DNA of 7,800 nucleotides from a virus (lineage: Duplodnaviria > Heunggongvirae > Uroviricota > Caudoviricetes): positions 1-7,800 of the IMG/VR virus record IMGVR_UViG_2529293076_000033, one strand, 5' to 3'. Below are positions 1-3,000 of the stretch, piece by piece. The position numbers were made by a program. Within the stretch, counting starts at the first letter, position 1. The number at the start of each line of letters is the position of its first letter.

Positions 1-3000
1 GGACTACTGGCATCAACAGGGAGTACAGGCGACTCGTATGACAACGCGATGGCTGAGAGCATCAATGGTCTTTACAAAGCGGAGGTAATACACCGTAAGA
101 GCTGGAAAAACCGTGCAGAAGTGGAACTGGCCACACTAACGTGGGTGGACTGGTATAACAATCGACGATTGCTGGGAAGGCTGGGCCATACTCCTCCGGC
201 AGAAGCAGAAAAAGCTTATTATGCTTCCATCGGAAACGATGATCTGGCAGCCTGAGTTCACAGATAAAACACTCTCCAGGAAACCCGGGGCGGTTCAGTC
301 TGTGGAAATTGGATGATTCCCTTTTTAGCCAGTGTTTCAATAGTTCTCTTAACACTATCTGGTCTGCTTCCCACCAGCTCAGCTATCTCAATACTGGTCA
401 TGGATGCTTTATCGGTAAAAATTTCTGTGTTCATTGTTGGTCTCCTGTGGGCTTGTCATCTTCTGTGTTCGCAAGACCTGGGTGTGTATATGGAATGTTC
501 GGATCCAGATGACAAAGAATGGCAACATCCTCCGGTACACCTCGCGTTTTCCACTTTCCTACGCCTTGACTGCCACGAGTTTTCCCTTTCTTTGGAAATC
601 TTCGACCAATAGCAGCATTGGTTTTGAATTGAATTTTTAATATTTCATAAAGGGTCATTTTTCAGCCTTACATTGACACTTAAGTATCCGCTAATGTTAA
701 GCAATAGAACCCAAAGTATCAAGGAATTCTGCTACTTTGGTATCAAACGCCACAAGGGGAGAGGAAAATGAAATCTTTAGGTGAACGTCTCGTCATCGCA
801 CGACAAAAAGCTGGATTAACGCAAGACGCACTAGCTAAGAAGGCTGGGATCACCAGAGTTGCAATCAGCAAAGCCGAGCAAGGTCTTACAAAAAGCTTCA
901 ACGGTGACACTCTTTTTAAAGTTGCATCTGCTCTGCAATGCTCGCCGCAGTGGCTCCAGAACGGAGACGAAAAAGACAGCAATTGGGAAAATAATGTTAA
1001 ATGCTGCCCTCAGAAAGACATTGCACACTATTACCCCGTGATTAACTGGGTTCAGGCAGGCTTATTTGCTACCACAGGTGATGACTACAACATGTATGAC
1101 CATGATAACTGGAGACATTCCGTAAAATACGCTGGTGAGCGGGGATTCTGGCTGGAAGTACACGGAGACTCAATGACTTCACCTGTTGGTATTACCTTTC
1201 CTGAGGGGATGTCGATCCTTGTCAACCCAGATAAAGAAGTTTTTTCAGGGTGTTACGTAATCGCCAGAAAGAAATCCACCAATGAGGCTACATTCAAAAA
1301 ATATATCTCTGAGATGGGAAGAGCTTTTCTAAAACCCCTTAATCCACAATATCCAATCATCGAAATGGACAATGATTGCGAAATAGTAGGTGTTGTGGTT
1401 GATGCCAGGTGGGATATTTTCTAATCACAACGAAAAAGAAACGATAGTATCAAAAAAAATCTTGCCACACATTGATACCTTAGTTACCATAAAACAAAAA
1501 TCGTAACTGAGGTATCAGCCAATGCACCACAACAAAGCCACAACCCTTGACTGCCTCGAAGAGCTAAAAAATCTCGGCAGCCTCATTACATTAATAGCAA
1601 AATCAGCCCAGGACACTACACTCTCTAACGATATAGAGTCATGCGCTGGGCTCGCATGGGATATGGCAAATAGCATATCTCGCAAGTTATCAGGATCCAT
1701 ATTTTTACAGACTCCAAATACAGAAACAAACTCCCGCATTCGCATGCAACGTGAAGCCTGCGGCTTGACGACCACTGAACTTGCCAGACTACTCGATCTT
1801 GACGAAGAGATTATTCTGCAATGGGAGAGCAGAGAGTGCGAGCCAACCATCAGCATGCTTATCCCCCTGGCAAACATCCTGGGATGCGAACCGCTTTCTT
1901 TGCTGGATGAAAAAGATAGCGCGTCTGTTATTCGCGTAAATGCGCCTGAAGTCTACGTGGAAAGTATTGGCGCACGCATCAAAAGCGCACGTAAAAAACT
2001 GGGCTTAACGGAAGCTGATCTTGCCCGCATGATTAATACCTACAGTGACCCCATAAACGACTGGGAATGCGGCATCTGTGAAGTTCCTGCTGATCAGATA
2101 GTACCACTGGCCAGTGCGCTTAATTGTGACCTGGTGTGGTTGTTAACGGGAAAATCAGAAGCAAAGGAGTAGCAACAATGACTGGCAATATCCATGATAA
2201 GTATGAAGGCTTATGCCTGGCACCGGATTCCTTTGCAAACAATATCCATGATTTATTATGCGCAGTTGTCGTATTACAAATGTCAGACAACGATGCAATA
2301 AAAAGAACAGGTGATGAAGTTCTTGAATTTGCACGTTGCTATGCTGAAGCAGCAGCTGAAAAAGAACTATCCAGTTAAATAAAACATATTATCGCTGAAC
2401 AATATATTACGGCTTAATCGCCGGGGATTATCACACACTTAATCCACTGGAGGCTTTATTATGACTTTTATAAAACATAAGGCATCACACAAAACAGCCT
2501 GTCTTATTGCACAACACGGTGAAAATTACATGCATATTGCCTGCTTATTTCTGCGTAAAGCATACGGGAGATAATAATGCATCAGAAAACAGCAGAACAC
2601 GAACAAACCAGAGTATTGCTGACAATCAAAAACGGGAAAGTAATATTCATTCGCCATGTTCATGACGATGAACTTGTAGGAAGTCTTTCAACATTCCTGT
2701 TTATTGCAGAAAAGGCAGGATATGACGTTATTGCACCAGCAGATGAAGATGAGGAGTAAATATCATGCAATACGCTGAATTCCAGGCTGAAGCAACAGCC
2801 ACAGGTATACGAACTGGCAGTATGACGATTGATTATCACGACGCAATCCGCCGTCTGGATGCCGGTGAATTCGATCATCCTAATGTGAAAGGTTTACGTA
2901 TCCTTCAGTGTCTCGCGCAAGCTGACGAAGCAGGATTACTGGGAAAACTTCCGGTTGAGATGAAGGTTGCCCAGTGGCGATGGTTGTATGTGACGACATT

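What the first reader, a model, noticed from the sequence alone, without database searches (positions are those of the whole stretch)
1522..2378. Uncharacterised two-gene cassette in the repressor-adjacent slot: tandem-HTH protein plus small partner
Directly 3' of the CI repressor gene, with only a 97-bp operator-like spacer and no convincing terminator, lies a 216-aa protein with an unassigned ~70-aa N-terminal region followed by two consecutive XRE-type HTH units. A 66-aa protein starts 5 nt after its stop behind AAGGAG. In lambda the equivalent position next to cI carries rexA-rexB, and the immunity-region flank is a known hotspot for prophage exclusion or abortive-infection genes expressed in lysogens. 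Neither protein resembles RexA/RexB, N, Cro, CII or any defence protein I can name, and a double-HTH architecture with an extra N-terminal domain is not a standard early regulator. It is the top candidate here for an undescribed regulatory or exclusion module.
Basis: partly seen in the sequence, partly recalled or inferred. Interest (0 to 1): 0.6.

Follow-up and report, generated by a model that had tools for sequence, protein, structure and literature searches.

The report
Early-operon regulator pair beside phage repressor
The two genes are real and conserved, but they are the first genes of the repressor-controlled early operon of a Shiga-toxin prophage rather than a defence cassette expressed in lysogens; they encode an uncharacterised regulator-like protein and a small partner related to the N-terminal module of that protein's relatives.

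Summary
CI is 768-1424, followed by a 97-bp spacer, a 216-aa protein A (1522-2172) and a 66-aa protein B (2178-2378).

The window is a defective copy of a long-tailed lambdoid Stx prophage, 99.96% identical to LC567819.

The rexAB analogy fails. The spacer carries a promoter-like site and GTATCA motifs shared with the cro/cI control region. In related immunity types, cI ends in an intrinsic terminator followed by a near-consensus promoter. A and B are therefore the first genes of the CI-repressed early-left operon, which is lambda's N slot. The intact phage has no annotated N, cII or cIII.

A has a helical hairpin followed by two XRE-fold HTH units. The hairpin changes one-for-one with CI type, while the HTH core and B stay conserved. 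Both HTH units are unusually acidic on the face that normally contacts DNA.

B is also a helical hairpin. It is homologous to the N-terminal hairpin of A's relatives, but not detectably to the window's own hairpin. That hairpin family is small, and apart from B-type proteins it occurs only fused to this HTH family.

Synteny CI-A-B held in all 48 loci analysed. No defence, toxin, N, CII or Rex family matched.

Most likely this is an immediate-early regulatory pair, with B acting on A in a SinI/SinR-like way. The function is untested.

The parts
431..658 (-). cro-like gene (75 aa, pI 9.5), divergent from cI and first gene of the early-right operon
   Evidence: ORF; phrog_4749 at E 9e-48; annotated next to cI in LC567819; charge
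659..767 (.). OR-like divergent control region between the cro-like gene and cI. It holds GTATCA motifs at 716 and 740 and three repeats (starting at 665, 703 and 734) shared with the cI-A spacer
   Evidence: Repeats D1, D2 and D4; hexamer enrichment
768..1424 (+). CI repressor (218 aa; HTH_3 plus S24 self-cleaving peptidase)
   Evidence: Pfam PF01381 at E 3.8e-14 and PF00717 at E 3.2e-22
1425..1521 (+). 97-bp spacer, read as the OL/PL-type operator-promoter region of the early-left operon
   Evidence: Motifs shared with OR; GTATCA/TGATAC at 1447, 1473 and 1512; no terminator; block conserved in phiP27 and a Salmonella prophage
1462..1490 (+). Sigma-70-like promoter TTGCCA-17-TACCAT (9 of 12 matches); predicted transcript start near 1497
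   Evidence: Both hexamers are invariant in five type-1 relatives. The equivalent position in other immunity types holds 10-11 of 12 promoters. The start site is inferred, not mapped
1472..1518 (.). Inverted repeat with 16-nt arms (1472-1487 and 1503-1518). It is a candidate operator as DNA. As RNA in cI read-through transcripts it would be a hairpin covering the Shine-Dalgarno GAGG at 1509-1512
   Evidence: Inverted repeat I1; RNA fold -23 kcal/mol, z -6.3; arms invariant and loop variable in relatives
1522..2172 (+). Gene A: 216-aa acidic protein (pI 4.6) made of a hairpin, HTH1 and HTH2
1522..1704 (+). A residues 1-61: two-helix hairpin module. It is immunity-linked and falls in 6 sequence types among the 48 loci, more among database homologues
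   Evidence: AlphaFold2 helices at residues 2-28 and 32-61; types listed; one-to-one association with CI type
1735..1902 (+). A residues 72-127: XRE-fold HTH1, net charge -5, recognition helix beginning D-E-E
1966..2148 (+). A residues 149-209: XRE-fold HTH2, with the 434 repressor and P22 C2 DNA-binding domains as closest solved relatives; net charge -2
1748..1748 (.). Approximate mosaic junction. Sequence to the left varies with immunity type; sequence to the right is shared at 84-99% identity across types
   Evidence: Megablast hits covering only query positions 349-1051; alignment A1
2164..2169 (+). AAGGAG Shine-Dalgarno sequence for B, inside the 3' end of A (translational coupling)
   Evidence: Sequence. 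Relatives have either a 5-nt gap or a 4-nt overlap between the two genes
2178..2378 (+). Gene B: 66-aa acidic helical hairpin (pI 4.4), a stand-alone copy of the hairpin module found at the N-terminus of A's relatives
   Evidence: phrog_4587 at E 1e-35; AlphaFold2 pLDDT 84; 45% identity, E 3e-8, to the type-2 N-domain; profile search

Best explanation
Genes A (1522-2172) and B (2178-2378) are the first two, translationally coupled genes of the CI-repressed early-left (PL-type) operon of a long-tailed lambdoid Stx prophage. That is lambda's N slot.

In a lysogen, CI bound at the GTATCA-type operators in the 97-bp spacer keeps them off. Any read-through from cI would additionally fold into a hairpin (1472-1518) that hides A's ribosome-binding site.

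After infection or induction, A and B are among the first proteins made. A is a modular protein with an immunity-linked two-helix hairpin and a conserved pair of XRE-fold HTH units. B is a free-standing hairpin of the family that is fused to the N-terminus of A's relatives.

The most likely mechanism is an immediate-early regulatory pair that acts in early gene control or the lysis-lysogeny decision of phages lacking N, CII and CIII. B would modulate A through the hairpin module, either by forming a hetero-complex with it or by competing for its partner. This is the logic of SinI/SinR.

What is shown: gene reality, domain architecture, position, conservation, operator and promoter motifs, and the homology of B to the family hairpin. 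What is inferred: repression by CI, the transcript start, occlusion of the ribosome-binding site, any DNA binding by A, the A-B interaction, and the biological output.
For: Position
- The window matches phage LC567819 at 99.96% from position 296 onward. Its gene map runs int, xis, about 13 small genes, B, A, cI, then the divergent cro-like gene, a Roi/Ant-like gene, O, helicase and Q.
- The spacer shares three motifs with OR, and GTATCA is enriched in the two regions (5 of 10 copies in 206 bp, P 3e-6).
- There is a promoter-like TTGCCA-17-TACCAT. The whole block is invariant in phiP27 and a Salmonella prophage.
- Other immunity types have TTGACA-17-TAATAT, TATTAT or TATTGT at the same place. 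In two of them an intrinsic terminator lies directly after cI.
- Synteny CI, A, B held in 48 of 48 loci, and CI followed by A in more distant members.
- No N, CII or CIII was found by annotation or by PHROG/Pfam scans of the early genes.

Architecture
- Pfam finds two HTH_3 units.
- AlphaFold2 gives a hairpin followed by two HTH domains, and the HTH fold superposes on P22 C2 and 434 repressor at 0.9 A.

B as a hairpin paralogue
- B is 45% identical over 44 aa to the type-2 N-domain (E 3e-8).
- B also hits the N-terminal part of phrog_4836.
- A profile search of 1.84 billion proteins found only 42 clusters. The 20 I inspected were stand-alone hairpins or hairpins fused N-terminally to this HTH family, apart from one repetitive protein and one variant with a divergent C-terminus; the 120-121-aa hits match at their C-terminus like the long form of B.
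- B is predicted to be a hairpin with pLDDT 84.

Selection
- The HTH core of A has dN/dS of 0.13-0.33.

Hairpin over the ribosome-binding site
- The RNA fold is -23 kcal/mol with z -6.3.
Against: - There is no experimental evidence of any kind for function. Three literature searches that ran and two phage-genome papers that I searched for regulator terms gave nothing on these genes.
- The window's own promoter matches only 9 of 12 positions. Promoter-like sites in the region are not more frequent than in shuffled sequence (7 found against 5.7 expected).
- No terminator follows cI in this immunity type, so expression in lysogens by read-through is not excluded.
- Both HTH units are acidic (net -5 and -2, against +4 for this phage's CI HTH and its Cro).
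- Both lack the helix-2 Gln that is present in all 7 repressors aligned, and their recognition helices begin DEE and SDP. Canonical DNA binding is therefore doubtful.
- No target site for A was identified.
- Homology between B and the window's own type-1 hairpin is not detectable.
- B is 95-100% identical across immunity types while A's hairpin varies, which argues against a tight hairpin-to-hairpin fit.
- The co-variation of hairpin type with CI type can be explained by physical linkage alone, since the two are only about 100 bp apart.
Confidence: 0.5

Rival explanations
1. The cassette would be an exclusion or abortive-infection module expressed in the lysogen, co-transcribed with cI like rexAB.
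For: - No terminator-like site lies between cI and A in this immunity type.
- The flank of the immunity region is a known home for such genes (general knowledge).
- Both proteins are uncharacterised.
Against: - Operator and promoter motifs lie between cI and A.
- Relatives place a terminator after cI and a strong promoter before A.
- A read-through transcript would sequester A's ribosome-binding site.
- There is no effector, membrane or nuclease domain. The only PADLOC hits come through the generic HTH.
- B is a soluble acidic hairpin.
Confidence: 0.1
2. The cassette would be an anti-repressor or commitment switch. A would not act as a DNA-binding regulator. Its immunity-specific hairpin would bind the cognate CI (or Cro), and the acidic HTH pair would mimic or mask operator DNA. 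The first PL transcripts after partial derepression would then inactivate the remaining repressor and lock in lytic growth. B would buffer or compete with this.
For: - Hairpin type and CI type are associated one-to-one across 5 CI clusters, while the HTH core stays 75-100% identical.
- The DNA-contact face is acidic in both HTH units and the conserved Gln is lost.
- A is the first gene made from PL, which suits a positive-feedback role (position).
Against: - The co-variation is expected from linkage over about 100 bp without any functional coupling.
- I know of no precedent for an XRE-fold operator mimic.
- HTH2 is still 33-41% identical to real repressor DNA-binding domains.
- The phage already encodes Ant/Rha-like proteins in its early-right operon.
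Confidence: 0.15
3. A would be the functional counterpart of CII, an activator that establishes lysogeny by turning on promoters for cI and int. B would be its CIII-like protector or modulator.
For: - The phage lacks recognisable cII and cIII.
- A matches phrog_4836, which is labelled 'CII-like regulator' (E 1e-50). A homologue is annotated 'putative CII repressor' in phage ASU11.
- A small PL-encoded partner parallels CIII (general knowledge of lambda).
Against: - The CII labels come from automated or HHpred-type annotation, not experiment.
- There is no Pfam Phage_CII match.
- The gene lies in the left operon rather than to the right of cro.
- The acidic HTH faces argue against DNA binding.
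- No repeated candidate site was found upstream of cI or int. I did not search for one systematically.
Confidence: 0.15
4. The cassette would be an early anti-defence or toxin-antitoxin-type pair. In one version, small acidic early proteins inhibit a host defence system, Acr/Aca-like or as a DNA mimic. In the other, A would be an XRE antitoxin and B a toxin.
For: - Both proteins are acidic (pI 4.6 and 4.4) and are expressed first from an early promoter (position).
- HTH-plus-small-protein operons are typical of Acr/Aca and type II toxin-antitoxin loci (general knowledge).
- There are weak NCBIfam hits to HipB- and MqsA-type antitoxin HTH domains.
Against: - Those hits are to generic HTH domains and fall far below the curated cut-offs.
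- B has no toxin-like family or fold and is acidic rather than basic.
- The B-type hairpin occurs, apart from B-type proteins, only fused to this HTH family, which points to an intramolecular or regulatory partner rather than a host target.
Confidence: 0.07

Closest known systems
SinR / SinI of Bacillus subtilis (an XRE repressor and its small antagonist)
   Same: An XRE-fold HTH is fused to a two-helix oligomerisation module. An adjacent small gene encodes only that kind of helical module, homologous to the one fused in the regulator family. Here B matches type-2 N-domains at E 3e-8.
   Different: - The domain order is reversed, with the hairpin N-terminal.
- There are two HTH units rather than one.
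- There is no sequence homology to SinR's C-terminal domain or to SinI; Pfam finds no SinI match.
- B is not detectably homologous to the window's own hairpin.
- The HTH faces are acidic.
- The context is a phage early operon.
- No interaction has been shown.
Lambda N (first gene of the PL operon)
   Same: Same genomic position: the first cistron downstream of the OL/PL-type region next to cI, transcribed toward xis and int. The N-terminal module is immunity-linked. The specificity region of N is also N-terminal and varies between lambdoid phages (general knowledge).
   Different: There is no arginine-rich RNA-binding motif; the protein has net charge -13. It has an XRE HTH fold instead. No Rfam family, nut-type or otherwise, matched in the window, and no terminators were found in 400-2800 that would need reading through.
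Lambda RexA/RexB
   Same: Lies next to cI on the same strand.
   Different: The operator and promoter region lies between cI and the cassette rather than beyond it. There is no homology, and no membrane protein.
TF-smORF induction modules of linear plasmid-like and other phages (Silpe et al. 2023, PMC10432266)
   Same: An XRE-type protein sits next to a small unannotated-type ORF in a temperate phage with a CI-type repressor.
   Different: In those modules the small ORF is divergently transcribed, is activated by the transcription factor, and inactivates only its own cI. Here the genes are co-directional with a 5-nt gap and lie behind CI-operator motifs. B is 95-100% identical across phages whose CI proteins share only 19% identity.
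phiP27 L10 and L08; ASU11 gp50 and gp51 (annotated homologues)
   Same: True homologues in the same position. L10 has the same type-1 hairpin (75% identity over query residues 4-135). L08 carries the B domain at its C-terminus.
   Different: L10 has a single HTH (138 aa). L08 is a 121-aa long form with an extra N-terminal domain, and it has its own upstream palindrome. None has a tested function.
434 and P22 C2 repressor DNA-binding domains
   Same: HTH2 is 33-41% identical to them and superposes at 0.9 A.
   Different: The helix-2 Gln and the polar residues of the recognition helix are replaced by E, S, D and P. The net charge is negative. There is no S24 or other C-terminal domain.

Membership tests
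Cro/C1 (XRE) HTH superfamily (Pfam HTH_3, PF01381) | Profile match above the curated cut-off | tested here: met
   51.2 bits against a cut-off of 23, with two stretches at residues 73-124 and 150-213
Cro/C1 (XRE) HTH superfamily (Pfam HTH_3, PF01381) | Five-helix fold superposable on solved members | tested here: met
   Foldseek hit to P22 C2 and 434 repressor: rmsd 0.9 A over 63 columns, TM-score 0.89-0.92 normalised to the target. Domain pLDDT about 80-89
Cro/C1 (XRE) HTH superfamily (Pfam HTH_3, PF01381) | DNA-contact signature: Gln at the start of helix 2, a polar or basic recognition helix, and a basic domain | tested here: not met
   The Gln is present in 7 of 7 aligned repressors but is T in HTH1 and E in HTH2. 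The recognition helices start DEE and SDP. Net charge is -5 and -2, against +4 for this phage's CI HTH
Cro/C1 (XRE) HTH superfamily (Pfam HTH_3, PF01381) | Sequence-specific DNA binding | not testable with these tools
   Needs EMSA, DAP-seq or ChIP
Lambda RexA/RexB-type exclusion cassette expressed in the lysogen | Located between cI and OL/PL and co-transcribed with cI | tested here: not met
   Operator and promoter motifs lie between cI and gene A. Relatives have a terminator and then a promoter there. Transcription itself was not measured
Lambda RexA/RexB-type exclusion cassette expressed in the lysogen | Homology to RexA/RexB or to any catalogued defence protein | tested here: not met
   Pfam, NCBIfam and PADLOC gave only generic HTH matches for A and none for B
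Lambda N antiterminator | First gene of the PL operon | tested here: met
   Gene order in LC567819 and the spacer motifs
Lambda N antiterminator | Arginine-rich RNA-binding motif or N-family profile | tested here: not met
   No N-family Pfam or PHROG hit. The protein has net charge -13
Lambda CII | Phage_CII profile match | tested here: not met
   No Pfam Phage_CII hit at E <= 0.1. The phrog_4836 'CII-like regulator' label and the ASU11 annotation rest on annotation only
Lambda CII | Encoded to the right of cro; activates promoters for cI and int | tested here: not met
   The position is left of cI. Promoter activation is not testable here
TF-smORF induction module (Silpe 2023) | Small ORF divergently transcribed from the transcription factor and activated by it | tested here: not met
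   The genes are co-directional with a 5-nt gap and a Shine-Dalgarno sequence inside A.
TF-smORF induction module (Silpe 2023) | Small ORF specific for its own cI (expected to co-vary with cI) | tested here: not met
   B is 95-100% identical across CI types that share 19% identity
SinR/SinI-type regulator-antagonist pair | HTH fused to a helical oligomerisation module, with a small partner homologous to that module | tested here: inconclusive
   Met at family level: B against the type-2 N-domain gives E 3e-8, and the hairpin occurs fused to this HTH family. Not shown for the window's own type-1 hairpin (blastp; hhalign probability 1%)
SinR/SinI-type regulator-antagonist pair | Physical heteromer that blocks the regulator | not testable with these tools
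   No multimer prediction or binding assay was available
Type II toxin-antitoxin pair with an XRE antitoxin | Partner gene encodes a recognisable toxin | tested here: not met
   B has no Pfam, NCBIfam, PADLOC or PDB sequence match. It is an acidic helical hairpin

The most novel reading that the evidence does not exclude
A would not be a transcription factor. It would be a CI-repressed, immunity-specific anti-repressor built from XRE folds.

- The hypervariable hairpin would recognise the cognate CI (or Cro).
- The two acidic HTH units would act as a protein mimic of operator DNA, or would cap the repressor's DNA-binding domains.
- The first PL transcripts would then irreversibly commit the prophage to lytic growth.
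- B, a conserved free hairpin, would set the threshold.

This would be a previously undescribed way to build the lambdoid switch in N-less, CII-less Stx phages. It could help explain why long-tailed Stx phages induce and produce toxin differently from short-tailed ones.
Probability: 0.12. Interest if true: 0.8.

Novelty: new variant of a known kind. Interest (0 to 1): 0.42.

Why it matters
These genes are the first ones expressed from the early-left promoter in a widespread group of long-tailed Shiga-toxin phages and their relatives, including phiP27 and ASU11. DNA matching window 1400-2450 was found in 99 of 5,426 complete E. coli genomes, and a related immunity type matched 163.

This phage group lacks the classical N, CII and CIII regulators. 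How it times early transcription and chooses between lysis and lysogeny is therefore unknown.

A regulator with an exchangeable, immunity-linked hairpin, two HTH folds that look unfit for ordinary DNA binding, and a free-standing hairpin paralogue is a concrete and cheap target for genetics. It might reveal a variant of the lambdoid switch. If it turns out to be an ordinary early repressor or activator, the finding is a routine annotation.

Tried and rejected
- Defence reading. PADLOC, Pfam and NCBIfam scans of A, B and neighbouring genes gave only generic HTH hits, so I rejected it as the leading idea.
- Solved structures. Sequence searches of the PDB found only repressor HTH domains for A and nothing for B.
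- Fold searches. Foldseek of the A model against PDB and BFVD found only single XRE domains and no characterised multi-domain relative. The inter-domain arrangement of the model is unreliable (pTM 0.32).
- Homology of B to the window's own N-terminal hairpin. Not detected by blastp, by profile-profile comparison, or by the large profile search, which returned no type-1 proteins.
- Known RNA elements. Rfam gave no match in the window. The arms of the 1472-1518 inverted repeat are invariant in relatives, so covariation cannot separate an RNA role from a DNA role.
- Target site for A. The conserved palindrome AGTCTCA-N15-TGAGACT lies upstream of the long form of B in 12 related loci but is absent from the window. 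I did not run a systematic motif search over the whole phage.
- Literature. Three searches that ran and three papers that I searched for specific terms gave no functional study of this family. One search call failed on syntax.
- Failed calls. The first Pfam call failed because I used 2179 instead of 2178 as B's start.
- Selection on B. There were too few substitutions (1-4 synonymous, 2-3 non-synonymous) to be informative.
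Full report
**What is in the window**

From position 296 to 7800 the window is 99.96% identical to the left arm of Stx1a-converting phage Stx1_14040 (LC567819). This is one of the long-tailed lambdoid Stx phages of E. 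coli O145:H28 and O111.

In window orientation the genes are:
- the tail of a transposase gene (rve-type integrase core domain; 49-255);
- a truncated Roi/Ant-like gene (258-434, minus strand);
- a cro-like gene (431-658, minus strand; phrog_4749);
- a control region (659-767);
- cI (768-1424; HTH_3 plus Peptidase_S24);
- a 97-bp spacer;
- gene A (1522-2172, 216 aa);
- gene B (2178-2378, 66 aa);
- about a dozen small early-left genes (Ead/Ea22, DUF4752, DUF551);
- xis (6227-6481);
- a frameshifted int (6515-7800).

**Checking the observation**

- The spacer is 97 bp and the scan finds no terminator in it.
- A has two HTH_3 stretches, at residues 73-124 and 150-213 (51.2 bits).
- B starts at 2178, five bases after A's TAG, behind AAGGAG at 2164-2169.

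Both are real genes.
- The order CI, A, B is found in all 48 loci I analysed: 7 GenBank phage loci, 40 IMG/VR contigs and the window.
- More distant members keep CI followed by A.
- The HTH core of A has dN/dS of 0.13-0.33.
- B belongs to phrog_4587 (E 1e-35) and is intact in 47 of the 48 loci.

**Position: the N slot, not the rex slot**

In lambda, rexAB lies between cI and OL/PL and is transcribed with cI, and N is the first gene after PL. Here the spacer between cI and A looks like OL/PL.
- It shares three repeats with the cro/cI control region. They start at 665, 703 and 734 in that region and at 1464, 1434 and 1506 in the spacer.
- Five of the ten GTATCA/TGATAC hexamers in the 7.8-kb window fall in these two regions, which together span 206 bp (binomial P about 3e-6). 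Shared 8-mers exceed shuffled sequence (P 0.03).
- It contains TTGCCA-17-TACCAT at 1462-1490.

That promoter match is modest at 9 of 12, and promoter-like sites in the region are not more frequent than chance. However, the block is invariant in phiP27, in another Stx phage and in a Salmonella prophage that share this immunity type, while neighbouring bases vary.

The strongest support comes from relatives with other immunity types. At the same place they have TTGACA-17-TAATAT, TTGACA-17-TATTAT (11 of 12) or TTGACA-17-TATTGT. Their spacers share type-specific motifs with their own OR regions. In two of these types an intrinsic terminator sits directly after cI.

A and B are therefore the first cistrons of the CI-controlled early-left operon, which runs on to xis and int. 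The intact phage has Q but no annotated N, cII or cIII, and PHROG and Pfam scans of its early proteins found none.

**A possible second lock**

The spacer holds an inverted repeat with 16-nt arms (1472-1487 and 1503-1518). Folded as RNA it gives -23 kcal/mol with z -6.3. The right arm covers A's GAGG at 1509-1512.

A transcript starting about 7 nt after the -10 hexamer, near 1497, would lack the left arm. A read-through transcript from cI would contain both arms. This would keep A untranslated in lysogens even though this immunity type has no terminator after cI.

This is inference. The arms are invariant in relatives, so covariation cannot tell an RNA role from an operator role.

**Anatomy of A**

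AlphaFold2 with 36 homologues (mean pLDDT 74) gives:
- a two-helix hairpin (residues 2-28 and 32-61);
- a flexible linker;
- HTH1 (72-127);
- a disordered linker (131-145);
- HTH2 (149-209).

The domain packing is not defined (pTM 0.32). The HTH fold superposes on P22 C2 and 434 repressor at 0.9 A with 33-41% identity. BFVD returned only HTH, XRE or repressor-type proteins and unnamed entries.

Two features are unusual. The first is that the protein is a mosaic. Megablast and alignments show that phages with a different cI share only the part from about 1748 onward, at 84-99% amino-acid identity. The hairpin, the spacer, cI and cro change together.
- Across the 48 loci, six hairpin types map one-to-one onto five CI clusters, with two related hairpin subtypes sharing one cluster. 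One further locus has a truncated N-terminus.
- The database homologues add more hairpin types.
- Because the hairpin lies only about 100 bp from cI, linkage alone could explain this. The junction does fall exactly at the domain boundary, so the hairpin is an exchangeable module.

The second is that both HTH units are acidic where repressors are basic.
- A has pI 4.6 and net charge -13. HTH1 is net -5 and HTH2 net -2, against +4 for this phage's own CI HTH and its Cro.
- I aligned both units with 434 repressor, P22 C2 and five CI types from the loci. The Gln at the start of helix 2, present in all seven repressors, is Thr in HTH1 and Glu in HTH2.
- The recognition helices begin D-E-E and S-D-P.
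- From published 434 and P22 repressor-operator structures (my own knowledge), these positions contact DNA.

Family membership is therefore secure, but ordinary operator binding is doubtful, especially for HTH1.

**Anatomy of B and its link to A**

B is acidic (pI 4.4) and is predicted to be a helical hairpin, with helices at residues 16-34 and 39-65 (pLDDT 84). It has no Pfam, NCBIfam, PADLOC or PDB match.

B is homologous to the N-terminal hairpin of A's relatives.
- It is 45% identical over 44 residues to the type-2 A of phage PPyecE_EH1910 (E 3e-8).
- It also hits the N-terminal part of phrog_4836, the family that covers those relatives.

I searched a profile of B plus such hairpins against 1.84 billion representative proteins. 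It found only 42 clusters. These fall into four groups:
- stand-alone hairpins of 60-90 aa;
- the C-terminal half of 120-121-aa proteins, the length class of the long form of B (phiP27 L08);
- the N-terminus of proteins with one or two HTH units of this same family (for the 20 sequences I inspected);
- exceptions: one 477-aa repetitive protein that matched only part of the profile, and one 109-aa variant with a divergent C-terminus.

This exclusive fusion pattern argues that the free hairpin works with or on the HTH protein.

Two cautions apply. B is not detectably homologous to the window's own type-1 hairpin. B is also 95-100% identical across immunity types while A's hairpin varies, so a tight hairpin-to-hairpin fit is not guaranteed.

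**Most likely mechanism**

My best reading is an immediate-early regulatory pair (confidence about 0.5). CI would keep the pair off in the lysogen. After infection or induction, A and B would be made first and together, by translational coupling. They would act in early gene control or the lysis-lysogeny choice of phages that lack N, CII and CIII. B would modulate A through the hairpin module, which is the logic of SinI/SinR.

The rivals are:
- an anti-repressor or commitment switch in which the immunity-linked hairpin binds the cognate CI or Cro and the acidic HTH pair acts as a decoy (0.15);
- a CII/CIII-like pair that establishes lysogeny (0.15);
- an anti-defence or toxin-antitoxin pair (0.07).

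**Comparison with known systems**

The cassette fails the tested defining features of RexAB, N, CII, type II toxin-antitoxin pairs, and the TF-smORF modules of Silpe et al.
- RexAB: both position and homology fail.
- N: there is no arginine-rich motif.
- CII: there is no profile match, and the gene is in the wrong operon. The 'CII' labels in PHROGs and in phage ASU11 come from annotation only.
- Type II toxin-antitoxin pairs: B matches no toxin family or fold.
- TF-smORF modules: those have a divergent, TF-activated small ORF that is specific for its own cI. Here the genes are co-directional and B does not vary with cI.

The cassette resembles SinR/SinI in architecture and logic but not in sequence.

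Homologues in phiP27 (L10 and L08, sequenced two decades ago) and in ASU11 are annotated without function. The searches I ran of the held papers found no functional study.

**Verdict**

This is a real, conserved and uncharacterised early-operon pair. It is ordinary in kind, an XRE-family phage regulator with a small partner. Its build is unusual: an exchangeable immunity-linked hairpin, two acidic HTH folds, and a free hairpin paralogue.

The regulatory suggestion is plausible. The rex-like positional argument and the defence suggestion are not supported.

I rate novelty as a new variant of a known kind, and interest as moderate (0.42).

Noticed in passing
window 1-295 and 258-434: The phage sequence stops at about 295. 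To the left is the 3' end of a transposase gene (49-255; rve_3/rve_2 integrase core domain). The insertion cuts the 235-aa Roi/Ant-like early-right gene after about 46 codons. The early-right operon of this prophage copy is therefore severed from its replication and Q genes.
   Followed up: partly
window 6690 and 5176: Compared with LC567819 there are single-base deletions at 5176 and 6690. The one at 6690 frameshifts the integrase, splitting it into ORFs 6515-6730 and 6667-7800. Together with the IS insertion this marks the prophage copy as defective.
   Followed up: yes
window 3873-4002 and 4499-4628: A 130-bp segment is repeated at 89% identity inside the two adjacent Ead/Ea22-like genes (3872-4501 and 4465-4911). 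They are tandem paralogues that share an N-terminal region.
   Followed up: no
window 2577-2759: A 60-aa protein (phrog_340) also matches the C-terminal parts of two PHROG families labelled anti-repressor (phrog_4792 at E 3e-5, phrog_2379 at E 3e-4). It may be a stand-alone fragment of an Ant-type domain, two genes downstream of B.
   Followed up: no
window 2461-2574: A 37-aa ORF behind GGAGG is annotated in LC567819. It has no PHROG match and sits in the 200-bp gap after B.
   Followed up: no
L005 4422-4450, L006 4300-4328, and 10 further loci: In relatives that carry the 121-127-aa long form of B, separated from A by a gap, a conserved palindrome AGTCTCA-N15-TGAGACT lies about 20-40 bp upstream of the annotated B start. 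It is a candidate protein-binding site, possibly for A. It is absent from the window.
   Followed up: partly
protein P0153: One member of the hairpin family is fused to an HTH that keeps the canonical Gln and looks like the CI-type HTH of other immunity types. The hairpin module can therefore also be joined to an apparently ordinary DNA-binding domain.
   Followed up: no
window 3357-3611: An 84-aa winged-helix (MarR-like) protein has a weak hit to a PHROG family labelled Ren-like exclusion protein (E 1e-4).
   Followed up: no
window 2178-2378 versus 1738-2169: Synonymous divergence between immunity types is lower in B (dS 0.02-0.10) than in the adjacent HTH core of A (dS 0.18-0.30). B may have been exchanged more recently, or it may carry an additional constraint at the DNA level.
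   Followed up: no
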